From a virus, in the UHGV virus genome UHGV-1367834: 38,620 nucleotides of DNA. One strand, 5' to 3'. The position numbers and the translations under genes were made by a program. How positions within the stretch are numbered: the first letter of the stretch is position 1; every line of letters starts with the position of its first letter. Below are positions 2,385 through 10,743 of the stretch, one piece after another. Under the pieces are notes generated by a model. The model made no database searches and was not told the DNA's origin. It was given only the letters and a program-made list of their open reading frames with translations.

Positions 2385-3153
2385 CTATGATATTCATTAC
2401 ACAGGTAGTAAAGGAAATTCAGTATCAATATATACTAATCAATTTAATATATTAGTTGATGCAGGTAAGCCTTACAAATTTATAGAGCCATTACTATATG
2501 AAAAACATTTTTTAATATTTACGCACAGACACGGTGACCATTTCAAACCAGCAGTATTTAGAAAAATACGTGAGAACTTCCCAAATATTAAAATTCTAGC
2601 AAATGAAGAAGTAAATAATTTAATGTTTGAAAAAACTAAAATGGGTGCAGATGTTGTTTTTAGTGATAACTTTCAATTTCAAATTGGTACAATGAAATTC
2701 ACAACTATTCAGAACTATCATGGTGCTGGTGAAGAATTAGTTGACTGTCATGGATTAATTATTGAAGATATTGAATCTGGTGAAGTATTATTATATGCAA
2801 CTGATTTAAGCACTACAATAGATTATCAGGAATATTTAGATAAAAACTCTTTACAAGTAGACTACTGTCTGTTAGAATCTAATTACAATCCTTTAGTAAT
2901 TGAATTTTATGAATTAACAAAAGCGCACACTGGTTTTGATATTTTTAGTAACGGTTCATATCGTCACTTAGCTTCAACTGAACATAAAGAATTTACAGAA
3001 AAGTATTGCAAAGCAGATTCAATTGTGGTACCATTACACCAAAGCGAAACATATTCAACTTTTGAAGGACTAATAAAACGTACTAAAAAATCAGATAACA
3101 AGATTACAGAGAAAGAGGTGAAAGCATGGTTGGAGAAAAAGAAACATATTTAG
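2338..3153 (+). CDS. metallo-beta-lactamase-fold hydrolase
   Basis: HxHxDH motif (FTHRHGDHF), with later His and Asp residues typical of the MBL fold. The start is uncertain: the ATG at 2338 overlaps the upstream gene, and a TTG at about 2368 with a GGAGG RBS is an alternative. Confidence 0.65.
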   Translation: MEKEKRTEVGNLSAFNYDIHYTGSKGNSVSIYTNQFNILVDAGKPYKFIEPLLYEKHFLIFTHRHGDHFKPAVFRKIRENFPNIKILANEEVNNLMFEKTKMGADVVFSDNFQFQIGTMKFTTIQNYHGAGEELVDCHGLIIEDIESGEVLLYATDLSTTIDYQEYLDKNSLQVDYCLLESNYNPLVIEFYELTKAHTGFDIFSNGSYRHLASTEHKEFTEKYCKADSIVVPLHQSETYSTFEGLIKRTKKSDNKITEKEVKAWLEKKKHI

Positions 3154-3650
3154 ATATAAAAGCTTATGAGGGATTATATCTAGTTAGTAATTTAGGTAGA
3201 GTTAAAAGAAAATATATTGATTCAGAAAGGATATTAAAAGGGTATGAAAACGAATGTGGATATATAGTTGTTTGTTTGTCTAAAAACGGCAAATCTAAGA
3301 ACTTTAAAGTTCACCGCTTAGTAGCAGAAGCTTTTATACTAAACCCAGAAAACAAACCAACCGTAAACCATATTGATGAAGATAAAACAAATAATAAAGC
3401 TGACAATTTAGAATGGGCTACAATGAAGGAACAGAATAACCATGGTACGAGGAATAAACGCTCATCAAAAACGCAAGGAATGAAAATAAAAGCAATAGAT
3501 ATTGCAAATGGTGAATATAATATCTACAACTCACAACAAGAATGCGCTAAGAGACTGAACATTATGCAATCAAGTATTAGTCAATGTATTAAAGGAAATA
3601 TGAAACAAACTGGAGGTTATATTTTTGAAAAAATCACAAATGAGTTATAA
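3126..3650 (+). CDS. HNH homing endonuclease (NUMOD4/HNH_3 type)
   Basis: Motifs KAYEGLYLVSNLGRVKR...[15 protein letters not shown]...NNHG, C-terminal tail GGYIFEKI. RBS AGAGGTG upstream. Confidence 0.8.
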   Translation: MVGEKETYLDIKAYEGLYLVSNLGRVKRKYIDSERILKGYENECGYIVVCLSKNGKSKNFKVHRLVAEAFILNPENKPTVNHIDEDKTNNKADNLEWATMKEQNNHGTRNKRSSKTQGMKIKAIDIANGEYNIYNSQQECAKRLNIMQSSISQCIKGNMKQTGGYIFEKITNEL

Positions 3651-6485: not shown

Positions 6486-8777
6486 ATGAAAAATATTGCA
6501 GAATTTAAAAAGGCACCAGAACTAGCTGAAAAATTATTGGAGGTATTCAGTAATCTAAAAGGTAATTCACGAAGTCTTGACCCAATGAGAGCTGGTCAAC
6601 ATGATGTGGTTGTGATTGAATCTACCAAAAAGTTATCAGCAAAAGGAAAAGAAATGAAAGTAGTTAAAATGCGGTCATTAGAAGATGGTAGGGACGTTAT
6701 AAGCTACATCATGAAGTTTCGTAAATATGACTGGGACAAATGGAAAAATGTTGAAGTTGGTGACCGTTTATTAATTGATTTAAAATTTAGCAATGGTTTT
6801 GCTACAGTCAAACCTATTAGAAGTATTTCAAAAGGTAATGATACACCATTTAAACCAAGTGAAGCATTAACAAAACAAACCATTTTATTATTTGATATTG
6901 AGATTTTTAAACATGATAGTTTATTTATATTTCGTGATTACTTCACCAAAGAATGGTTTATCATTAATAATGACCTTGACGAATTACGCAAGTTTTATCT
7001 TGAATACCGTGATTCAATGTTTATTGGGTATAATAATGCGTCATATGATAACAATGTAATGCGTGGGTATTTACAAGGCAAAAATGCTTATCAGATGTCT
7101 AAGACAATTATTGAATCAGATAATAGAGGTCTAGTTTATAAGATGTTTGATAGCCATAAAACACCATTGTTTGGAATGGACCTGTACCAAGATAACAAAG
7201 GTTTTAGCTTAAAAGAGCATTCAGCATTCTTAGGTATCAACATTAAAGAAACAGAAGTAGATTTTGACATGGATAGACCATTGACAGATGAAGAAAAAGA
7301 GAAAAACGTTGCATACTGTATGAATGATGTATTAGCAACTGAAAAACGTTTTGAACAAAACATTGGTATGTTATTGGCTAAAGCAACCATTGCTTTAATG
7401 TTTGACATGGATAAGACAGACCTATTACAAACCAATGCTAATTTAACAGCTAAGTTACTTGGTGCAACTAAACAAGAAGTTAGACCAGACTTAACAGACC
7501 CATTAGAATTAGATAAACGATTAAACATTAATACAAAAGAAATTGCAGAAGCATATCTTAACCATGAGTTTGAACTAAATGAAGATGGTAAATTAAATGT
7601 GTCATTAGAGTACACGGACGAAGATGGATATACAATGATTTTTGGTAGTGGTGGTGTACATGGTGCTAAAGCCAGTTATATTCACATTGGAATGTTCCCA
7701 ATGCGTGACTGGGGTTCATTATACCCAAACACAATGGAACAATTCAACTTACTATCAAGAAATATTCCAAAGGATAAGATTCACCGTTATGGTGACTTGC
7801 TAAAACAACGTATGGACGCTAAGTATTCAGGTGAAGAAGTGGCAAACATTAAAGGTGTAGAAGTACCAACATATGTAATGATTAACGGTATCAAGTTACC
7901 ATTGAACACTAAGTTTGGTGCTACTGGTGCGCAGTTCAATGGTTTATATGACCCAAGAAACCAATTCTTGGTTTGTGCAACTGGTCAATTGATTATGACA
8001 AACATGTATGAATTAATTAAAGGTAAGGCACAGTTCATTCAATCAAATACAGATGCACACGCATATATTCCAAACAGTGAAGCAGATGACAAAGCTATTG
8101 ATGAAGCTTTAGATGAATTTGCTAACAAGATTGGGCTAACATTAGATAAGGATATGTTCCGTGAAATTTGGCAAAAAGATGTAAATAACTACATTGCAGT
8201 ACAACCAAATGGAAAAGTAAAAGTAAAAGGTGCTATTGGCTTAACAGGTGGCATGAAAGTGTCAAAAGCGATTGTATCTAATGCGTTCATTAATTACCTA
8301 GTAGCTGGTAAAGATTATAAAGACTTTATCAATGAATGTAATGAACTAAGACAGTTTCAAATTATTACTAAAACAGGTTGGACCTTTGATAGAACGGTTG
8401 CACGTGATAGTGAAGGTAATGAGTTCAACGCACAGAAGGTTAACCGTGTGTTTGCAGTAAAAGACAAAACTAATGCAGTAGAATTGTTTAAGGTCAAAGA
8501 AGGTCAATTATTAGATATTGAAGCTGATGAATTTAAGGATAACATTTCATATACAAAAGGACTGGCAAACGCACCAGAATACTACACAATCAGTAATGAA
8601 GCGATTGGCGAAGGTATTACAATTGATGAAGTTGACAAACAATACTATATTGACCAAGTAGAAGATACTCTTGAACTATGGTTTGGTGAAAATTGGAAAG
8701 AACGTATTGAACAAGCACATCATGAACGAGAATTACAAGGATTCAAACCAGTGGAAGTAAAAAATTATATTGACTAA
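6486..8777 (+). CDS. family B DNA polymerase with a 3'-5' exonuclease domain
   Basis: Exo I motif LLFDIE, Exo II motif YNNASYDNNV, Exo III motif YCMNDV. Polymerase motif A-like DWGSLYPNTM and motif C-like SNTDA. Strong RBS TTGGAGGAATT. Confidence 0.85.
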   Translation: MKNIAEFKKAPELAEKLLEVFSNLKGNSRSLDPMRAGQHDVVVIESTKKLSAKGKEMKVVKMRSLEDGRDVISYIMKFRKYDWDKWKNVEVGDRLLIDLKFSNGFATVKPIRSISKGNDTPFKPSEALTKQTILLFDIEIFKHDSLFIFRDYFTKEWFIINNDLDELRKFYLEYRDSMFIGYNNASYDNNVMRGYLQGKNAYQMSKTIIESDNRGLVYKMFDSHKTPLFGMDLYQDNKGFSLKEHSAFLGINIKETEVDFDMDRPLTDEEKEKNVAYCMNDVLATEKRFEQNIGMLLAKATIALMFDMDKTDLLQTNANLTAKLLGATKQEVRPDLTDPLELDKRLNINTKEIAEAYLNHEFELNEDGKLNVSLEYTDEDGYTMIFGSGGVHGAKASYIHIGMFPMRDWGSLYPNTMEQFNLLSRNIPKDKIHRYGDLLKQRMDAKYSGEEVANIKGVEVPTYVMINGIKLPLNTKFGATGAQFNGLYDPRNQFLVCATGQLIMTNMYELIKGKAQFIQSNTDAHAYIPNSEADDKAIDEALDEFANKIGLTLDKDMFREIWQKDVNNYIAVQPNGKVKVKGAIGLTGGMKVSKAIVSNAFINYLVAGKDYKDFINECNELRQFQIITKTGWTFDRTVARDSEGNEFNAQKVNRVFAVKDKTNAVELFKVKEGQLLDIEADEFKDNISYTKGLANAPEYYTISNEAIGEGITIDEVDKQYYIDQVEDTLELWFGENWKERIEQAHHERELQGFKPVEVKNYID

Positions 8778-8781
8778 AGTA

Positions 8782-8819
8782 TTGACAAACGATAGGTAAG
8801 GTGATATACTTTACCTATC
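8782..8819 (+). promoter_or_regulatory. early promoter P3 (TTGACA, 17-nt spacer, TATACT) with a 9-bp inverted repeat GATAGGTAA/TTACCTATC bracketing the -10
   Basis: Read directly; this is an operator-like palindrome. Confidence 0.6.
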
Positions 8820-8839
8820 AATAAATAGGAGGAATTTAA

Positions 8840-9438
8840 ATGAACGCACTTGAAGTTAAAAGTGTAAAAGAATATACTGTTTTACCAGTACCACGAAATG
8901 CAATTCGTGATTTTATTGAAGAATGGCACTACACACACACTCTATAAATGGTCTACAATCATCATACTGTTTTGGTCTATATTGTGGTAATGAATTAATT
9001 GGCGCTATGATATATGGTGGCTTAGGTATGGCAAATGTTTGGAAGAAATACGGTGAAACCAAGGAGGAAGTTTTGGAACTTCGTAGACTATGTTTGATTG
9101 ATGATACTAAACGTAATGCAGAATCGTACTTCATTGGTAAAACATTGAAATGGTTACGTATGAATACAACTGTAAAAACTATTGTAAGTTATGCAGACCC
9201 AAATCATGGGCATGAAGGTATCATTTATAAAGCAACAAACTTCACGTTAGTAGGAAAGACAACTAAAACTAAAGTTATAAAATACGGTGATAAGACATAT
9301 CATGATAAAGCAATCAGAACGAAATACAAAGGTAAACTGAAACCATTTGCGCAACGACTAGTTGATGCTTTAAACAGTGGTGAAGCTTATTATATTGAAC
9401 AAGAACCTAAAAATATTTATGTAAAGGAATTGATTTAA
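8840..9438 (+). CDS. hypothetical protein split by a frameshift at a (CA)5 tract; the ORFs are 8840-8947 and 8923-9438
   Basis: A strong RBS (TAGGAGGAATTTAAATG) precedes the ATG at 8840, but that frame stops after ...EEWHYTHTL. The reading continues in another frame as HTHSINGLQSSYCFGLYCGNELIGAMIYGG..., and that second ORF has no RBS of its own. The junction lies in the tract ACACACACAC at about 8931-8940. Confidence 0.5.
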
Positions 9439-9669
9439 ATGATTACAGTATATACTAAAAACAATTGCATGCCTTGCAAAATGACAAAACGTAAATTACA
9501 AGAGTTAGGAGTTACCTATAAAGAAATTAATGTAGATGAAAATTTGGAAGCATTAGAATTTTTAATGGAATACGGATTTCGTTCTTTACCAGTTGTGTTC
9601 AATGAAAATGGCGCACCTATGGTAACAGGTGGATATGCACCAAATATCTTAGAAACCATTGTTTCATAG
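9439..9669 (+). CDS. nrdH: NrdH-like glutaredoxin/thioredoxin-fold redoxin
   Basis: 76 aa with a CMPC active-site motif near the N-terminus, which is the size and layout of NrdH. Its start is coupled to the upstream gene. Confidence 0.75.
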   Translation: MITVYTKNNCMPCKMTKRKLQELGVTYKEINVDENLEALEFLMEYGFRSLPVVFNENGAPMVTGGYAPNILETIVS

Positions 9670-9673
9670 GTGC

Positions 9674-9755
9674 ATTCTAAGCACGTTTCAGATTCAAAGT
9701 AAGGTAATTATACATTAAAAAGCAAATAAAGACACCCTATATAGGGTGTCTTTTG
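9674..9755. repeat. copy A of the roughly 82-nt direct repeat flanking the lysis cassette
   Basis: ATTCTAAGCACGTTTCAGATTCAAAGTAAGGTAATTATACATTAAAAAGCAAATAAAGACACCCTATATAGGGTGTCTTTTG. Confidence 0.7.
9730..9755. terminator. bidirectional intrinsic terminator at the convergence of early (+) and late (-) transcription
   Basis: Perfect 11-bp stem AAAGACACCCT / AGGGTGTCTTT with loop ATAT, flanked by an A-run and a T-run. It sits between the nrdH-like stop and the endolysin stop. Confidence 0.7.
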
Positions 9756-9759
9756 TGTT

Positions 9760-10743
9760 TTATTGATATAATAAAGTGTTTTTGTTTTCAGTGAATAACC
9801 AAATGAACTCTTCTGGTAACTGTACATGAGATAATGTATAACCACCGTAAGGTGTTTGCTCTTGCACTACACCTACAGAATTAACTTGGAAATTGAAGTA
9901 ATCACCTACAGAAAGAACTTGGTCTTTGGTTGGTTGCCCAGTAGCTGGGTTTACTTTATCAACAACACTAACTGGAATACCGTTATCAGTCCAATTAAAG
10001 TCAATTTTACCTAAATGTTCGTTATAGATTTGCCACATTCCGTTTACATATTCCAACCCATCAACTCTATAGTTAAAACGTTGTTTTTGAGGTGTTACAC
10101 TTGGTTTAGATGGTTTGTTAGGTGTTGCTGGGTTTGACGGCTTAGAATCACCCTGAACACCATTTGCTAAGTCTTTAGCAAGTTGTGCTTTACTGATTCC
10201 CATTTCTGCTAAGTAACCATATGGGTCTGTGTGGTCACCCCATACATAATCTGATACCCATTTATGAGAGATAACACCTTTTTCCCAAACAGAAGAACCT
10301 TGGTCAAGTGTCATAGGAATACCAAACTTTTTACCCATGTCCCTTGTATAATCAATGTATGCTTTATAGTTCTTTTTGAACAATTCCTTATCATGTGTAT
10401 GTTGCAACTCAATTTGAATAGGTGCATATGGATTTGCATTACCAGCTCCCCATGAAATGTTGCCTTCTGGTGCAATCTTATAAACAATACCACCATCACC
10501 AACGATAGCTGTTGTATGTGCGTTAAACCAGTTATTTTTCATGTACGTTGCTTCATTTCTTCCTGTGGCACGTTCATTAGCAGTTTCATGTAAGATAATC
10601 TTATTAGGTACTGCAACCTGTCCTGAACCTTCCCAAGGACTTAAATTGAACTCGTTATTAACTTCATATGCGTTAGCTGTTTGCATTCCAGCAAATAAAC
10701 CAATGGTTGCTAATGCACCAAATAAAATACCTTTTAATTTCAT
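9760..10743 (-). CDS. endolysin: N-acetylmuramoyl-L-alanine amidase (amidase_2/PGRP-like) with an N-terminal signal peptide and a C-terminal cell-wall-binding region
   Basis: The N-terminus MKLKGILFGALATIGLFAGMQTANA looks like a Sec signal peptide. The amidase_2-like catalytic region follows, then a Pro/Ser/Lys linker (PSNPATPNKPSKPS) and a C-terminal domain. RBS GGAGGA. Confidence 0.8.
   Translation of the reverse strand: MKLKGILFGALATIGLFAGMQTANAYEVNNEFNLSPWEGSGQVAVPNKIILHETANERATGRNEATYMKNNWFNAHTTAIVGDGGIVYKIAPEGNISWGAGNANPYAPIQIELQHTHDKELFKKNYKAYIDYTRDMGKKFGIPMTLDQGSSVWEKGVISHKWVSDYVWGDHTDPYGYLAEMGISKAQLAKDLANGVQGDSKPSNPATPNKPSKPSVTPQKQRFNYRVDGLEYVNGMWQIYNEHLGKIDFNWTDNGIPVSVVDKVNPATGQPTKDQVLSVGDYFNFQVNSVGVVQEQTPYGGYTLSHVQLPEEFIWLFTENKNTLLYQ

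What the first reader, a model, noticed from the sequence alone, without database searches (positions are those of the whole stretch)
8840..9438. Early gene split by a frameshift exactly at a (CA)5 dinucleotide tract; possible slipped-strand phase switch, pseudogene or sequencing error
A gene with a strong RBS starts at 8840, but its frame ends after ...FIEEWHYTHTL. A second frame, with no RBS of its own, continues through the rest of a protein of about 200 aa (HTHSINGLQSSYCFGLYCGNELIGAMIYGG...VSYADPNHGHEGIIYKATNF...). The switch point is the tract CACTACACACACACTC at about 8927-8942. Loss of one CA unit would fuse the two frames into a single ORF. Dinucleotide tracts are classic slipped-strand mispairing sites, so the gene may exist in ON and OFF states within the phage population, or it may be translated by ribosomal frameshifting. 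An assembly error is the mundane alternative. The gene lies between the DNA polymerase gene and nrdH, so it is expressed with the replication genes.
Basis: seen in the sequence. Interest (0 to 1): 0.55.

Follow-up and report, generated by a model that had tools for sequence, protein, structure and literature searches.

The report
Frameshifted Mom-like gene, Enterococcus phage
An Enterococcus phage gene for a DNA-modifying, anti-restriction enzyme (Mom-like) is broken by one extra AC unit in a short repeat; this is a real and recurrent knock-out mutation of a dispensable gene, and nothing shows it to be an evolved on/off switch.

Summary
A 35-codon ORF (8840-8947) and a 171-codon ORF in another frame (8923-9438) meet at T(AC)5T (8931-8940). 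Deleting one AC gives a single 198-aa protein. That protein is a clear Mom-family DNA modification enzyme (Pfam PF25680, 130.9 bits).

The window is an Enterococcus faecalis siphophage of genus Efquatrovirus. Every intact ortholog examined has an 8-nt tract and one ORF: 23 GenBank phage records, 8 IMG/VR contigs and 3 metagenome contigs.

The extra AC is not an assembly error. The same split allele, in sequence 100% identical to the window, occurs in independent ENA, JGI and Logan assemblies (53-55 contigs).

A second, differently diverged allele also carries (AC)5, and its intact form sits on 26 contigs. The tract is therefore a slippage hot spot. Three other lineages lost the gene in other ways: two nonsense mutations and one +G insertion.

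The tract is short, no longer than base composition predicts, and synonymously interrupted in 4 of 15 intact alleles. It encodes Y31-T32-H33, and Y31 belongs to the invariant H30-Y31 motif. No slippery heptamer or stimulatory structure is present.

Best reading: a recent slipped-strand loss-of-function mutation in an accessory anti-restriction gene. It is reversible in principle, but there is no sign of a programmed switch.

The parts
6486..8777 (+). Family-B DNA polymerase gene (763 aa), upstream neighbour
   Evidence: ORF. Orthologs are annotated as DNA polymerase.
8782..8810 (+). Near-consensus sigma-70 promoter, TTGACA-17 nt-TATACT with TG extended -10, in front of the Mom-like gene
   Evidence: 11 of 12 matches and TG present. 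It is a consensus match only; function is inferred.
8791..8819 (.). Inverted repeat GATAGGTAAGGT / ACTTTACCTATC flanking the -10 hexamer. Possibly an operator, or a hairpin in read-through RNA.
   Evidence: 12-nt arms, 92% complementary, 5 nt between them. Conserved in orthologs in alignment A1. The role is inferred.
8827..8832 (+). Shine-Dalgarno AGGAGG, 7 nt before ATG 8840
   Evidence: Sequence. Invariant in alignment A1.
8840..8947 (+). 5' fragment of the Mom-like gene (35 codons). It carries invariant R19, F25, E27, H30 and Y31, then runs out of frame to TAA.
   Evidence: This exact 35-aa product is called on 55 public contigs.
8931..8940 (+). (AC)5 tract, the site of the +2-nt insertion. 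Intact orthologs have 8 nt here (ACACACAC or an interrupted version), coding Y31-T32-H33.
8920..9438 (+). 3' part of the Mom-like gene in the +2/-1 frame. It is open from 8920, has its first ATG at 8923, and codes for 171 aa. It holds the equivalents of Mu Mom R111, S124, D149 and Y159 (R82, S95, D119, Y129).
   Evidence: Precomputed Pfam Mom hit on the 171-aa product.
9439..9669 (+). Glutaredoxin/NrdH-like gene (76 aa). Its ATG starts directly after the Mom-like gene's TAA stop codon (TAAATG).
   Evidence: PF00462. Annotations.
9728..9753 (.). Bidirectional intrinsic terminator between the convergent nrdH and endolysin genes. It marks the end of the Mom-like/nrdH transcription unit.
   Evidence: 11-bp stem, T-runs on both strands. 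The corresponding site is annotated as a terminator in phage Max.

Best explanation
The region is the Mom-like DNA modification gene of an Enterococcus faecalis Efquatrovirus phage. Mom is a GNAT-fold enzyme that in phage Mu uses glycyl-tRNA to hypermodify adenine, which blocks restriction of the phage DNA.

In this phage lineage, replication slippage added one AC unit to a 4-unit tract (TAC ACA CAC, coding Y31-T32-H33). The reading frame now stops after 35 codons.

The break falls right after the invariant H30-Y31 pair, which aligns with Mu Mom H58/Y59. It separates that pair from the other conserved catalytic-site residues: R82, S95, D119 and Y129, the equivalents of Mu R111, S124, D149 and Y159. 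The downstream part has no ribosome-binding site. Most likely no active enzyme is made, and the phage DNA goes unmodified.

The gene is accessory. It sits in a swap site that in related phages is empty or holds a methylase. Losing it is therefore tolerated, and the mutation is fixed in this clone.

The tract is a local indel hot spot, since the same change happened twice, and the lesion could revert by the reverse slip. That follows from which codons happen to encode the motif. It is not a designed switch.

Shown: the lesion, its reproducibility, the intact orthologs, family membership, and recurrence. Inferred: loss of activity, slippage as the cause, and tolerance of the loss.
For: Lesion and orthologs:
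- The 2-nt gap falls exactly in the tract against 11 orthologs.
- All 23 Enterococcus phage records with at least 90% identity give a single full-length tblastn piece.
- 8 IMG/VR and 3 metagenome orthologs all have 8-nt tracts.

Family:
- Pfam Mom PF25680, 130.9 bits against a 27.1 cut-off. PHROG 1384, E=2.9e-65.
- Mu Mom crystal structure 8bv8, E=5e-12, with H30/Y31, R82, S95, D119 and Y129 aligned to H58/Y59, R111, S124, D149 and Y159.
- All of these positions are invariant in 14 diverse homologs.
- In Mu Mom, R111A and S124A lacked activity (the paper calls both residues essential for catalysis), and D149A was reported earlier to greatly reduce it. H58A, Y59A and Y159A drastically reduce it. 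An N-terminal 20-residue deletion reduces it (PMC13219725).

Real, not an artefact:
- The exact 171-aa and 35-aa products are on 53 and 55 contigs.
- Contigs from ENA ERZ652162 (coverage 955), ENA ERZ28649919, JGI 3300045988 and Logan SRR8090928 carry (AC)5. Three of them are 100% identical to the window over 6.5-19 kb.
- No other real gene in the window is frameshifted relative to three relatives.

Recent event:
- Window-specific substitutions in the gene are 5 synonymous to 1 non-synonymous.
- All carriers compared over 6.5-19 kb are identical.

Hot spot, dispensable gene:
- A phiSHEF2-like allele (4 nt from phiSHEF2, 46 nt from the window allele) also has (AC)5 in two runs.
- Other lineages carry GAA>TAA at E94, GAA>TAA near codon 51, and a +G near codon 14.
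- The polB-nrdH site is empty or holds other genes in many relatives.
Against: - No reads were available, so a minority of (AC)4 genomes within the population cannot be excluded.
- The 5:1 excess of synonymous changes would also fit a gene that is still under selection because some full-length protein is made. A +2 slip of peptidyl-tRNA from ACA 8933-8935 to ACA 8935-8937, or from CAC to CAC, would re-pair perfectly and restore the wild-type sequence.
- The same change in two lineages, with ON and OFF forms of one allele in public data, is also what a crude phase switch would look like.
- All carriers of the window allele are identical in sequence. The many contigs may therefore be one clone sampled repeatedly, not a long-lived lineage.
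- The activity of this subfamily has never been tested, and the residue aligned to essential Mu R151 is N121.
Confidence: 0.72

Rival explanations
1. The AC tract is a working phase switch. Slippage toggles the Mom-like gene between ON (4 units) and OFF (5 units) at a useful rate. Phage populations would then always contain both modified and unmodified genomes, for example to escape modification-dependent (type IV) restriction or to avoid Mom toxicity.
For: - The same +AC arose in two independent alleles.
- For the second allele the intact form is on 26 contigs and the split form on 2.
- The lesion is exactly one repeat unit, so it can revert.
- The gene is repeatedly knocked out in nature, at least 5 independent events. 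This suggests OFF is sometimes favoured.
- Phase variation of phage genes through simple repeats has a precedent: polyG tracts in Campylobacter phages (Sorensen et al. 2021, cited in PMC11868660).
Against: - The tract has only 4-5 units and is no longer than composition predicts. The review names 'repeat numbers not expected from genome composition' as the critical criterion.
- The repeat is interrupted by point changes in 4 of 15 distinct intact alleles. Three of these keep the protein sequence and one changes H33 to Q. Wider homologs have no repeat, because they carry S where this clade has T32.
- Only lengths 4 and 5 occur.
- Three of five knock-outs use other routes.
- The intact form of the window allele is absent from the 15-billion-protein collection, while the split form is on 53 contigs.
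Confidence: 0.14
2. The split gene is still expressed as a full-length enzyme through recoding. The ribosome would shift +2 (or -1) on the AC repeat, or RNA polymerase would slip on it, so the (AC)5 allele is a low-expression variant and not a null.
For: - Read directly from the sequence: ACA 8933-8935 and ACA 8935-8937, and CAC 8936-8938 and CAC 8938-8940, are identical codons 2 nt apart. A +2 slip would therefore re-pair perfectly and give exactly the wild-type sequence ...WHYTHSING...
- The downstream ORF has no further defect.
- Lineage-specific changes are mostly synonymous.
Against: - No ortholog keeps a split architecture.
- No X XXY YYZ heptamer and no Shine-Dalgarno-like stimulator lies in the 28-nt overlap 8920-8947.
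- The downstream RNA folds no better than shuffles (z 0.01 and 0.14).
- From my own knowledge, not tested here: +2 shifts are rare and inefficient, and transcriptional slippage needs long homopolymer runs.
Confidence: 0.05
3. The extra AC is a sequencing, PCR or assembly artefact, and the real phage has an intact gene.
For: - Indels in short repeats are a known error class.
- Every intact ortholog has 8 nt at this position.
Against: - The same (AC)5, in sequence identical to the window wherever compared over 6.5-19 kb, appears in separate assemblies made with different pipelines and samples: ENA ERZ652162 at about 955x, ENA ERZ28649919, JGI 3300045988 and Logan SRR8090928. The index lists 75-78 blocks.
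- The window shows no other frameshifted real gene.
- From my own knowledge: a 2-nt insertion in a 10-nt tract is not a typical systematic error of short-read platforms.
Confidence: 0.03
4. The 171-aa downstream product, or the 35-aa and 171-aa pieces together, still forms an active enzyme. It would be translated by re-initiation at ATG 8923 after termination at 8945-8947.
For: - ATG 8923 lies 22 nt upstream of the stop of the first ORF, so a terminating ribosome could in principle re-initiate there (inference).
- The C-terminal piece keeps R82, S95, D119 and Y129.
Against: - The piece lacks residues 1-28 and replaces W29-H30-Y31 with A-L-H.
- H30/Y31 are invariant. In Mu Mom, H58A and Y59A drastically reduce activity, and a 20-residue N-terminal truncation already reduces it.
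- There is no Shine-Dalgarno motif in front of 8923.
Confidence: 0.03

Closest known systems
Mom of bacteriophage Mu (Pfam PF25680; PDB 8bv8), a tRNA-dependent adenine hypermodification enzyme
   Same: - A strong Pfam and PHROG match, and a direct sequence match to the Mu Mom crystal structure.
- The equivalents of H58, Y59, R111, S124, D149 and Y159 are conserved.
- A phage-encoded, dispensable anti-restriction function.
   Different: - Only about 200 aa against 231 in Mu.
- Mu's essential R151 aligns to N121.
- It lies in the replication module with its own sigma-70-like promoter. From my own knowledge, Mu mom is instead a late gene with Dam/OxyR/Com control.
- Activity and product are untested for this subfamily.
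- In this window the gene is frameshifted.
Mom-like DNA modification genes of other Efquatrovirus phages (phiSHEF2 gp23, Stockyards gp26, PMBT2, Ef6.1 and others)
   Same: Same position between polB and nrdH, and the same promoter, RBS and stop context.
   Different: All of those are single intact 198-199-aa ORFs with an 8-nt tract. The window has one extra AC, giving two ORFs.
Simple-sequence-repeat contingency loci (e.g. polyG tracts in Campylobacter phage genes; phase-variable restriction-modification genes)
   Same: A frame change by one repeat unit in a gene involved in DNA modification and host-defence conflict. The same change recurs independently, and it is reversible in principle.
   Different: The tract is far shorter than recognised hypermutable tracts and is not conserved as a repeat. 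It is not over-represented and shows no range of lengths. Other knock-out routes are used as often (criterion from PMC11868660).
Programmed frameshifts of phage genes (e.g. tail assembly chaperone G/GT)
   Same: Two overlapping ORFs that could be joined by a frame change.
   Different: No conservation of the split, no slippery heptamer and no stimulatory structure. For comparison, the relative Stockyards has a joined (two-piece) CDS annotated elsewhere in its genome, the tape measure gene. That shows annotators do mark joined CDSs in this genus, but never at this gene.

Membership tests
Mom protein family (Pfam PF25680 / PHROG 1384) | Score above the curated Pfam gathering threshold | tested here: met
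   Repaired 198-aa protein: 130.9 bits against a cut-off of 27.1, E=6.5e-38. PHROG 1384 E=2.9e-65. The 171-aa fragment also carries a precomputed PF25680 hit.
Mom protein family (Pfam PF25680 / PHROG 1384) | Conservation of the residues shown to matter for Mu Mom activity (H58, Y59, R111, S124, D149, Y159) | tested here: met
   The phmmer alignment to 8bv8 maps them to H30, Y31, R82, S95, D119 and Y129. All are invariant in 14 homologs. The list of residues comes from PMC13219725.
Mom protein family (Pfam PF25680 / PHROG 1384) | Conservation of Mu Mom R151 (R151A had no detectable activity) | tested here: not met
   R151 aligns to N121 (SYADPNHGH against SFADERCGR). This position is variable across the subfamily. 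The chemistry may differ in detail.
Mom protein family (Pfam PF25680 / PHROG 1384) | HTH-like insertion in the GNAT fold (Mu residues ~175-209), required for activity | not tested
   The sequence alignment to 8bv8 ends at chain position 179. No structure was predicted.
Mom protein family (Pfam PF25680 / PHROG 1384) | Transfers glycine from Gly-tRNA to N6 of adenine in dsDNA, protecting the DNA from restriction | not testable with these tools
   Biochemistry is known only for Mu Mom and two metagenomic homologs (PMC13219725).
Functional gene (as opposed to pseudogene) | One uninterrupted reading frame covering all conserved residues | tested here: not met
   TAA at 8945-8947 follows codon 35, and the rest is in another frame.
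SSR-mediated phase-variable (contingency) locus | Repeat number higher than expected from genome composition | tested here: not met
   5 tracts of at least 4 units against 6.6 expected. P(at least one tract of at least 5 units)=0.40.
SSR-mediated phase-variable (contingency) locus | The repeat is conserved as a repeat among orthologs | tested here: not met
   4 of 15 distinct intact alleles have an interrupted tract (ATACACAC twice, ACACACAT, ACACACAG), and ACACTCAC occurs in L017. Distant homologs lack the repeat.
SSR-mediated phase-variable (contingency) locus | Tract-length polymorphism, with ON and OFF forms of the same allele | tested here: inconclusive
   phiSHEF2-like allele: ON on 26 contigs, OFF on 2. 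Window allele: OFF on 53 contigs, ON form absent. Only lengths 4 and 5 are seen. No within-sample read data were available.
SSR-mediated phase-variable (contingency) locus | Switching rate 100-10,000 times the basal mutation rate | not testable with these tools
   This needs fluctuation assays or deep amplicon sequencing. The criterion is from PMC11868660.
Programmed ribosomal frameshift | Split two-ORF architecture conserved among orthologs | tested here: not met
   Every intact ortholog encodes a single ORF: 23 GenBank phage records, and 8 IMG/VR plus 3 metagenome loci with an 8-nt tract.
Programmed ribosomal frameshift | Slippery site plus a stimulatory element (downstream structure or upstream SD-like sequence) | tested here: not met
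   No X XXY YYZ heptamer in 8920-8947. Downstream folds have z 0.01 and 0.14. The only relevant feature is identical ACA/CAC codons 2 nt apart.

The most novel reading that the evidence does not exclude
The codons for the motif Y31-T32-H33 in Efquatrovirus Mom-like genes form a short AC repeat. That repeat may act as a recurrent, reversible OFF/ON toggle for DNA hypermodification. The repeated independent loss of the gene (5 events, 2 of them at the tract) would then reflect selection against Mom-type modification in E. faecalis hosts that carry modification-dependent defences, or a cost of Mom itself. It would be a natural example of a phage tuning its own anti-restriction modification through a minimal repeat.
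Probability: 0.12. Interest if true: 0.55.

Novelty: new member of a known kind. Interest (0 to 1): 0.27.

Why it matters
In practical terms, annotators should label 8840-9438 as a frameshifted Mom-like pseudogene, not as two hypothetical proteins. This phage's DNA is probably unmodified, unlike that of close relatives. That could change its host range on restricting E. faecalis strains, which is relevant because Efquatrovirus phages are candidates for therapy.

In biological terms, the Mom-like gene in this genus turns out to be an accessory cassette that is lost again and again: two slips at the same tract, two nonsense mutations, and one single-base insertion. This hints that carrying Mom-type modification is sometimes neutral or costly. 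It is a modest observation, not a new mechanism.

Tried and rejected
- Assembly error. Rejected after exact-protein look-ups found the same split allele in independent assemblies. A whole-window scan against three relatives found no other broken real gene. The pairs it flagged were antisense or spurious ORFs, and the scan was insensitive to fragments under about 35 aa.
- Programmed frameshift. Looked for a slippery heptamer, an SD-like stimulator and downstream structure, and found none.
- Search for tract lengths other than 4 or 5 units. IMG/VR and JGI metagenome pattern scans with a variable gap gave only 8-nt tracts in true orthologs. The 10-nt and other matches were unrelated chance hits.
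- P0002 (143 aa) was considered as a sixth broken allele. It is merely cut by a contig end.
- The hairpin at 8892-8909, flagged as terminator-like, is weakened in most orthologs and was not pursued.
- Recombination as the source of the second (AC)5 allele. This would need a conversion patch under about 45 nt, between differing sites at gene positions 89 and 134. It is judged less likely than independent slippage, but it is not excluded.
- Literature searches for Mom-like genes in Enterococcus phages or Efquatrovirus found nothing specific.

Full report
**What is in the sequence.** AGGAGG (8827-8832) lies 7 nt before ATG 8840. That ORF reads MNALEVKSVKEYTVLPVPRNAIRDFIEEWHYTHTL and stops at TAA 8945-8947. 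A second frame, +2/-1 relative to the first, is open from 8920. It has its first ATG at 8923 with no Shine-Dalgarno motif, and it runs to its stop codon at 9436-9438, giving 171 aa. The two frames overlap across T(AC)5T at 8931-8940. Deleting one AC gives a clean 597-nt ORF of 198 aa.

As a repeat the tract is unremarkable. The window has 5 dinucleotide tracts of at least 4 units against 6.6 expected. Two tracts of at least 5 units are found against 0.5 expected, with P(at least 1)=0.40.

**What the gene and the genome are.** The window is an Enterococcus faecalis siphophage of genus Efquatrovirus. Its closest GenBank record is phage G01, at 91.5% identity over 87% of a 25-kb query, and the phage itself is not in the phage collection.

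The repaired protein is a Mom-family enzyme:
- Pfam PF25680, 130.9 bits against a cut-off of 27.1.
- PHROG 1384 'Mom-like DNA modification protein', E=2.9e-65.
- The crystal structure of Mu Mom (8bv8), E=5e-12.

Mu Mom is a GNAT-fold enzyme. It transfers glycine from Gly-tRNA(Gly) to N6 of adenine in double-stranded DNA, and this protects the phage DNA from restriction (PMC13219725).

The alignment maps Mu H58/Y59, R111, S124, D149 and Y159 onto H30/Y31, R82, S95, D119 and Y129. The numbering was checked through the S124A substitution visible in the crystal chain. All of these residues are invariant in 14 diverse homologs. Mu's essential R151 aligns with N121, which is not conserved in this subfamily. 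So the family assignment is firm, but identical chemistry is not established.

**Where the break falls.** The tract codons TAC ACA CAC encode Y31-T32-H33. The frameshift therefore separates the H30-Y31 pair, in the 35-aa fragment, from R82/S95/D119/Y129 in the 171-aa fragment. In Mu Mom, H58A and Y59A drastically reduce activity, and a 20-residue N-terminal deletion already reduces it. A fragment lacking residues 1-28 and reading A-L-H in place of W-H-Y is therefore most likely inactive. This last step is an inference.

**Comparison with relatives.**
- In an alignment with 11 orthologs the only indel is a 2-nt gap inside the tract.
- All 23 Enterococcus phage records at 90% identity or more give a single full-length tblastn piece and are annotated as one 198-199-aa gene.
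- Eight IMG/VR contigs and three metagenome contigs also have 8-nt tracts.
- Among 15 distinct intact alleles the tract is ACACACAC in 11. The others are ATACACAC (2), ACACACAT (1) and ACACACAG (1). ACACTCAC occurs once more.
- In the wider family position 32 is usually serine, so no AC repeat exists there.

The repeat is a by-product of codon choice in one clade and is not maintained as a repeat.

**Not an assembly error.** The exact 171-aa and 35-aa products are recorded on 53 and 55 public contigs, and the index lists 75-78 blocks. Four independent sources carry (AC)5:
- ENA ERZ652162, at about 955x coverage.
- ENA ERZ28649919, a 41,490-nt scaffold from sample SAMN05827046.
- JGI metagenome 3300045988.
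- Logan SRR8090928.

The ENA and JGI contigs are 100% identical to the window over 6.5-19 kb. The Logan contig carries the same allele and tract. A scan of the whole window against three relatives found no other frameshifted real gene. The mutation is therefore real and fixed in this clone. Because all carriers compared are identical, they amount to one clone seen many times, and the event looks recent. Consistent with that, the window-specific substitutions in the gene are 5 synonymous to 1 non-synonymous (K107M).

**Recurrence.** The protein cluster also holds other truncated members. Their DNA shows four further independent lesions:
- (i) Logan ERR5083877 and ERR5083840 carry a phiSHEF2-like allele with (AC)5. 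It is 4 nt from phiSHEF2 and 46 nt from the window allele. Its intact form (P0140) is on 26 contigs.
- (ii) Five runs carry GAA>TAA at E94.
- (iii) Three samples carry a +G insertion near codon 14.
- (iv) One run carries GAA>TAA near codon 51.

So the gene has been knocked out at least five times, twice by the identical slip. The tract is a local indel hot spot, and the gene is dispensable. This fits its location. The polB-nrdH junction is empty in many relatives and holds a DNA methylase or other small genes in others.

**Weighing the interpretations.** A programmed frameshift is unsupported:
- The split is not conserved in any ortholog.
- The 28-nt overlap holds no X XXY YYZ heptamer.
- There is no stimulatory structure (z 0.01 and 0.14).

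One sequence feature could allow leaky expression. Identical ACA and CAC codons lie 2 nt apart, so a rare +2 slip would restore the wild-type protein. This is a possibility only.

An evolved phase switch is also poorly supported:
- The tract is short and is not enriched.
- It is not conserved as a repeat and shows only two lengths.
- It is not the preferred knock-out route.
- The intact version of the window allele is absent from about 15 billion proteins.

The recurrence, and the coexistence of ON and OFF forms of the second allele across samples, keep a weak version of the switch idea alive. Read-level data would settle it.

**Context.** The gene has its own near-consensus promoter, TTGACA-17-TATACT with TG, at 8782-8810. 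A 12-nt inverted repeat (8791-8802 / 8808-8819) lies around the -10 hexamer. The gene is followed directly by nrdH (9439-9669) and a bidirectional terminator (9728-9753). Expression timing was not tested.

**Verdict.** This is a genuine, recent slipped-strand frameshift that inactivates an accessory Mom-like anti-restriction gene in one Efquatrovirus clone. It is an ordinary kind of event in a known gene. The mildly interesting extra is that the same gene is lost repeatedly in nature and that the AC tract is one recurrent route.

Noticed in passing
window 8778-9438 (polB-nrdH junction); compare L023 21299-21868: This junction is a swap site in Efquatrovirus. 23 GenBank records hold the Mom-like gene. 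Many have only about 300 bp there (phiSHEF5, VP15, EfaCPT1, IME-EF4). phiSHEF4/11 hold a DNA methyltransferase, and G01, Q69/159 and SANTOR1 hold other small hypothetical genes. L037 has an extra 87-aa gene between polB and the Mom-like gene.
   Followed up: partly
window 8782-8819: A near-consensus extended -10 promoter (11 of 12 matches plus TG) has a 12-nt inverted repeat, GATAGGTAAGGT/ACTTTACCTATC, around its -10 hexamer. The repeat is conserved in relatives. It could be an operator controlling a potentially toxic DNA-modifying enzyme.
   Followed up: partly
window 9200-9205 (codons 120-122 of the repaired gene): The residue aligned to Mu Mom R151 is N121 here, and this position varies across this large Mom subfamily. 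R151A had no detectable activity in Mu. All other residues important for Mu Mom activity are invariant. The subfamily may differ in mechanism or product.
   Followed up: partly
L030-L038 (public contigs of related phages): Independent knock-outs of the same gene occur in other lineages: GAA>TAA at E94 (5 runs), +G near codon 14 (3 samples), and GAA>TAA near codon 51 (1 run).
   Followed up: yes
window about 1-324, 1803-2384, 3126-3650 (from the L043 gene table, offset 1161): Three I-HmuI-like HNH/NUMOD4 homing endonuclease genes are interspersed in the replication module of this phage. That is more than the relatives Stockyards and G01 have annotated at those places.
   Followed up: no
window 9728-9753: A perfect 11-bp-stem bidirectional terminator lies between the convergent nrdH and endolysin genes.
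   Followed up: no
window 9760-10743 (- strand): The endolysin here is the 327-aa Amidase_2 + ZoocinA_TRD type. Stockyards and others have a 365-aa Amidase_2 + SH3_5 type, so the cell-wall-binding domain is swapped between close relatives.
   Followed up: no
JGI metagenome 3300045988 (L013, L016, L018, L020-L022, L027, L042): One metagenome holds at least seven different Efquatrovirus contigs. They include intact (AC)4 alleles, interrupted-tract alleles and the window's (AC)5 allele, so several strains co-occur in one sample.
   Followed up: no
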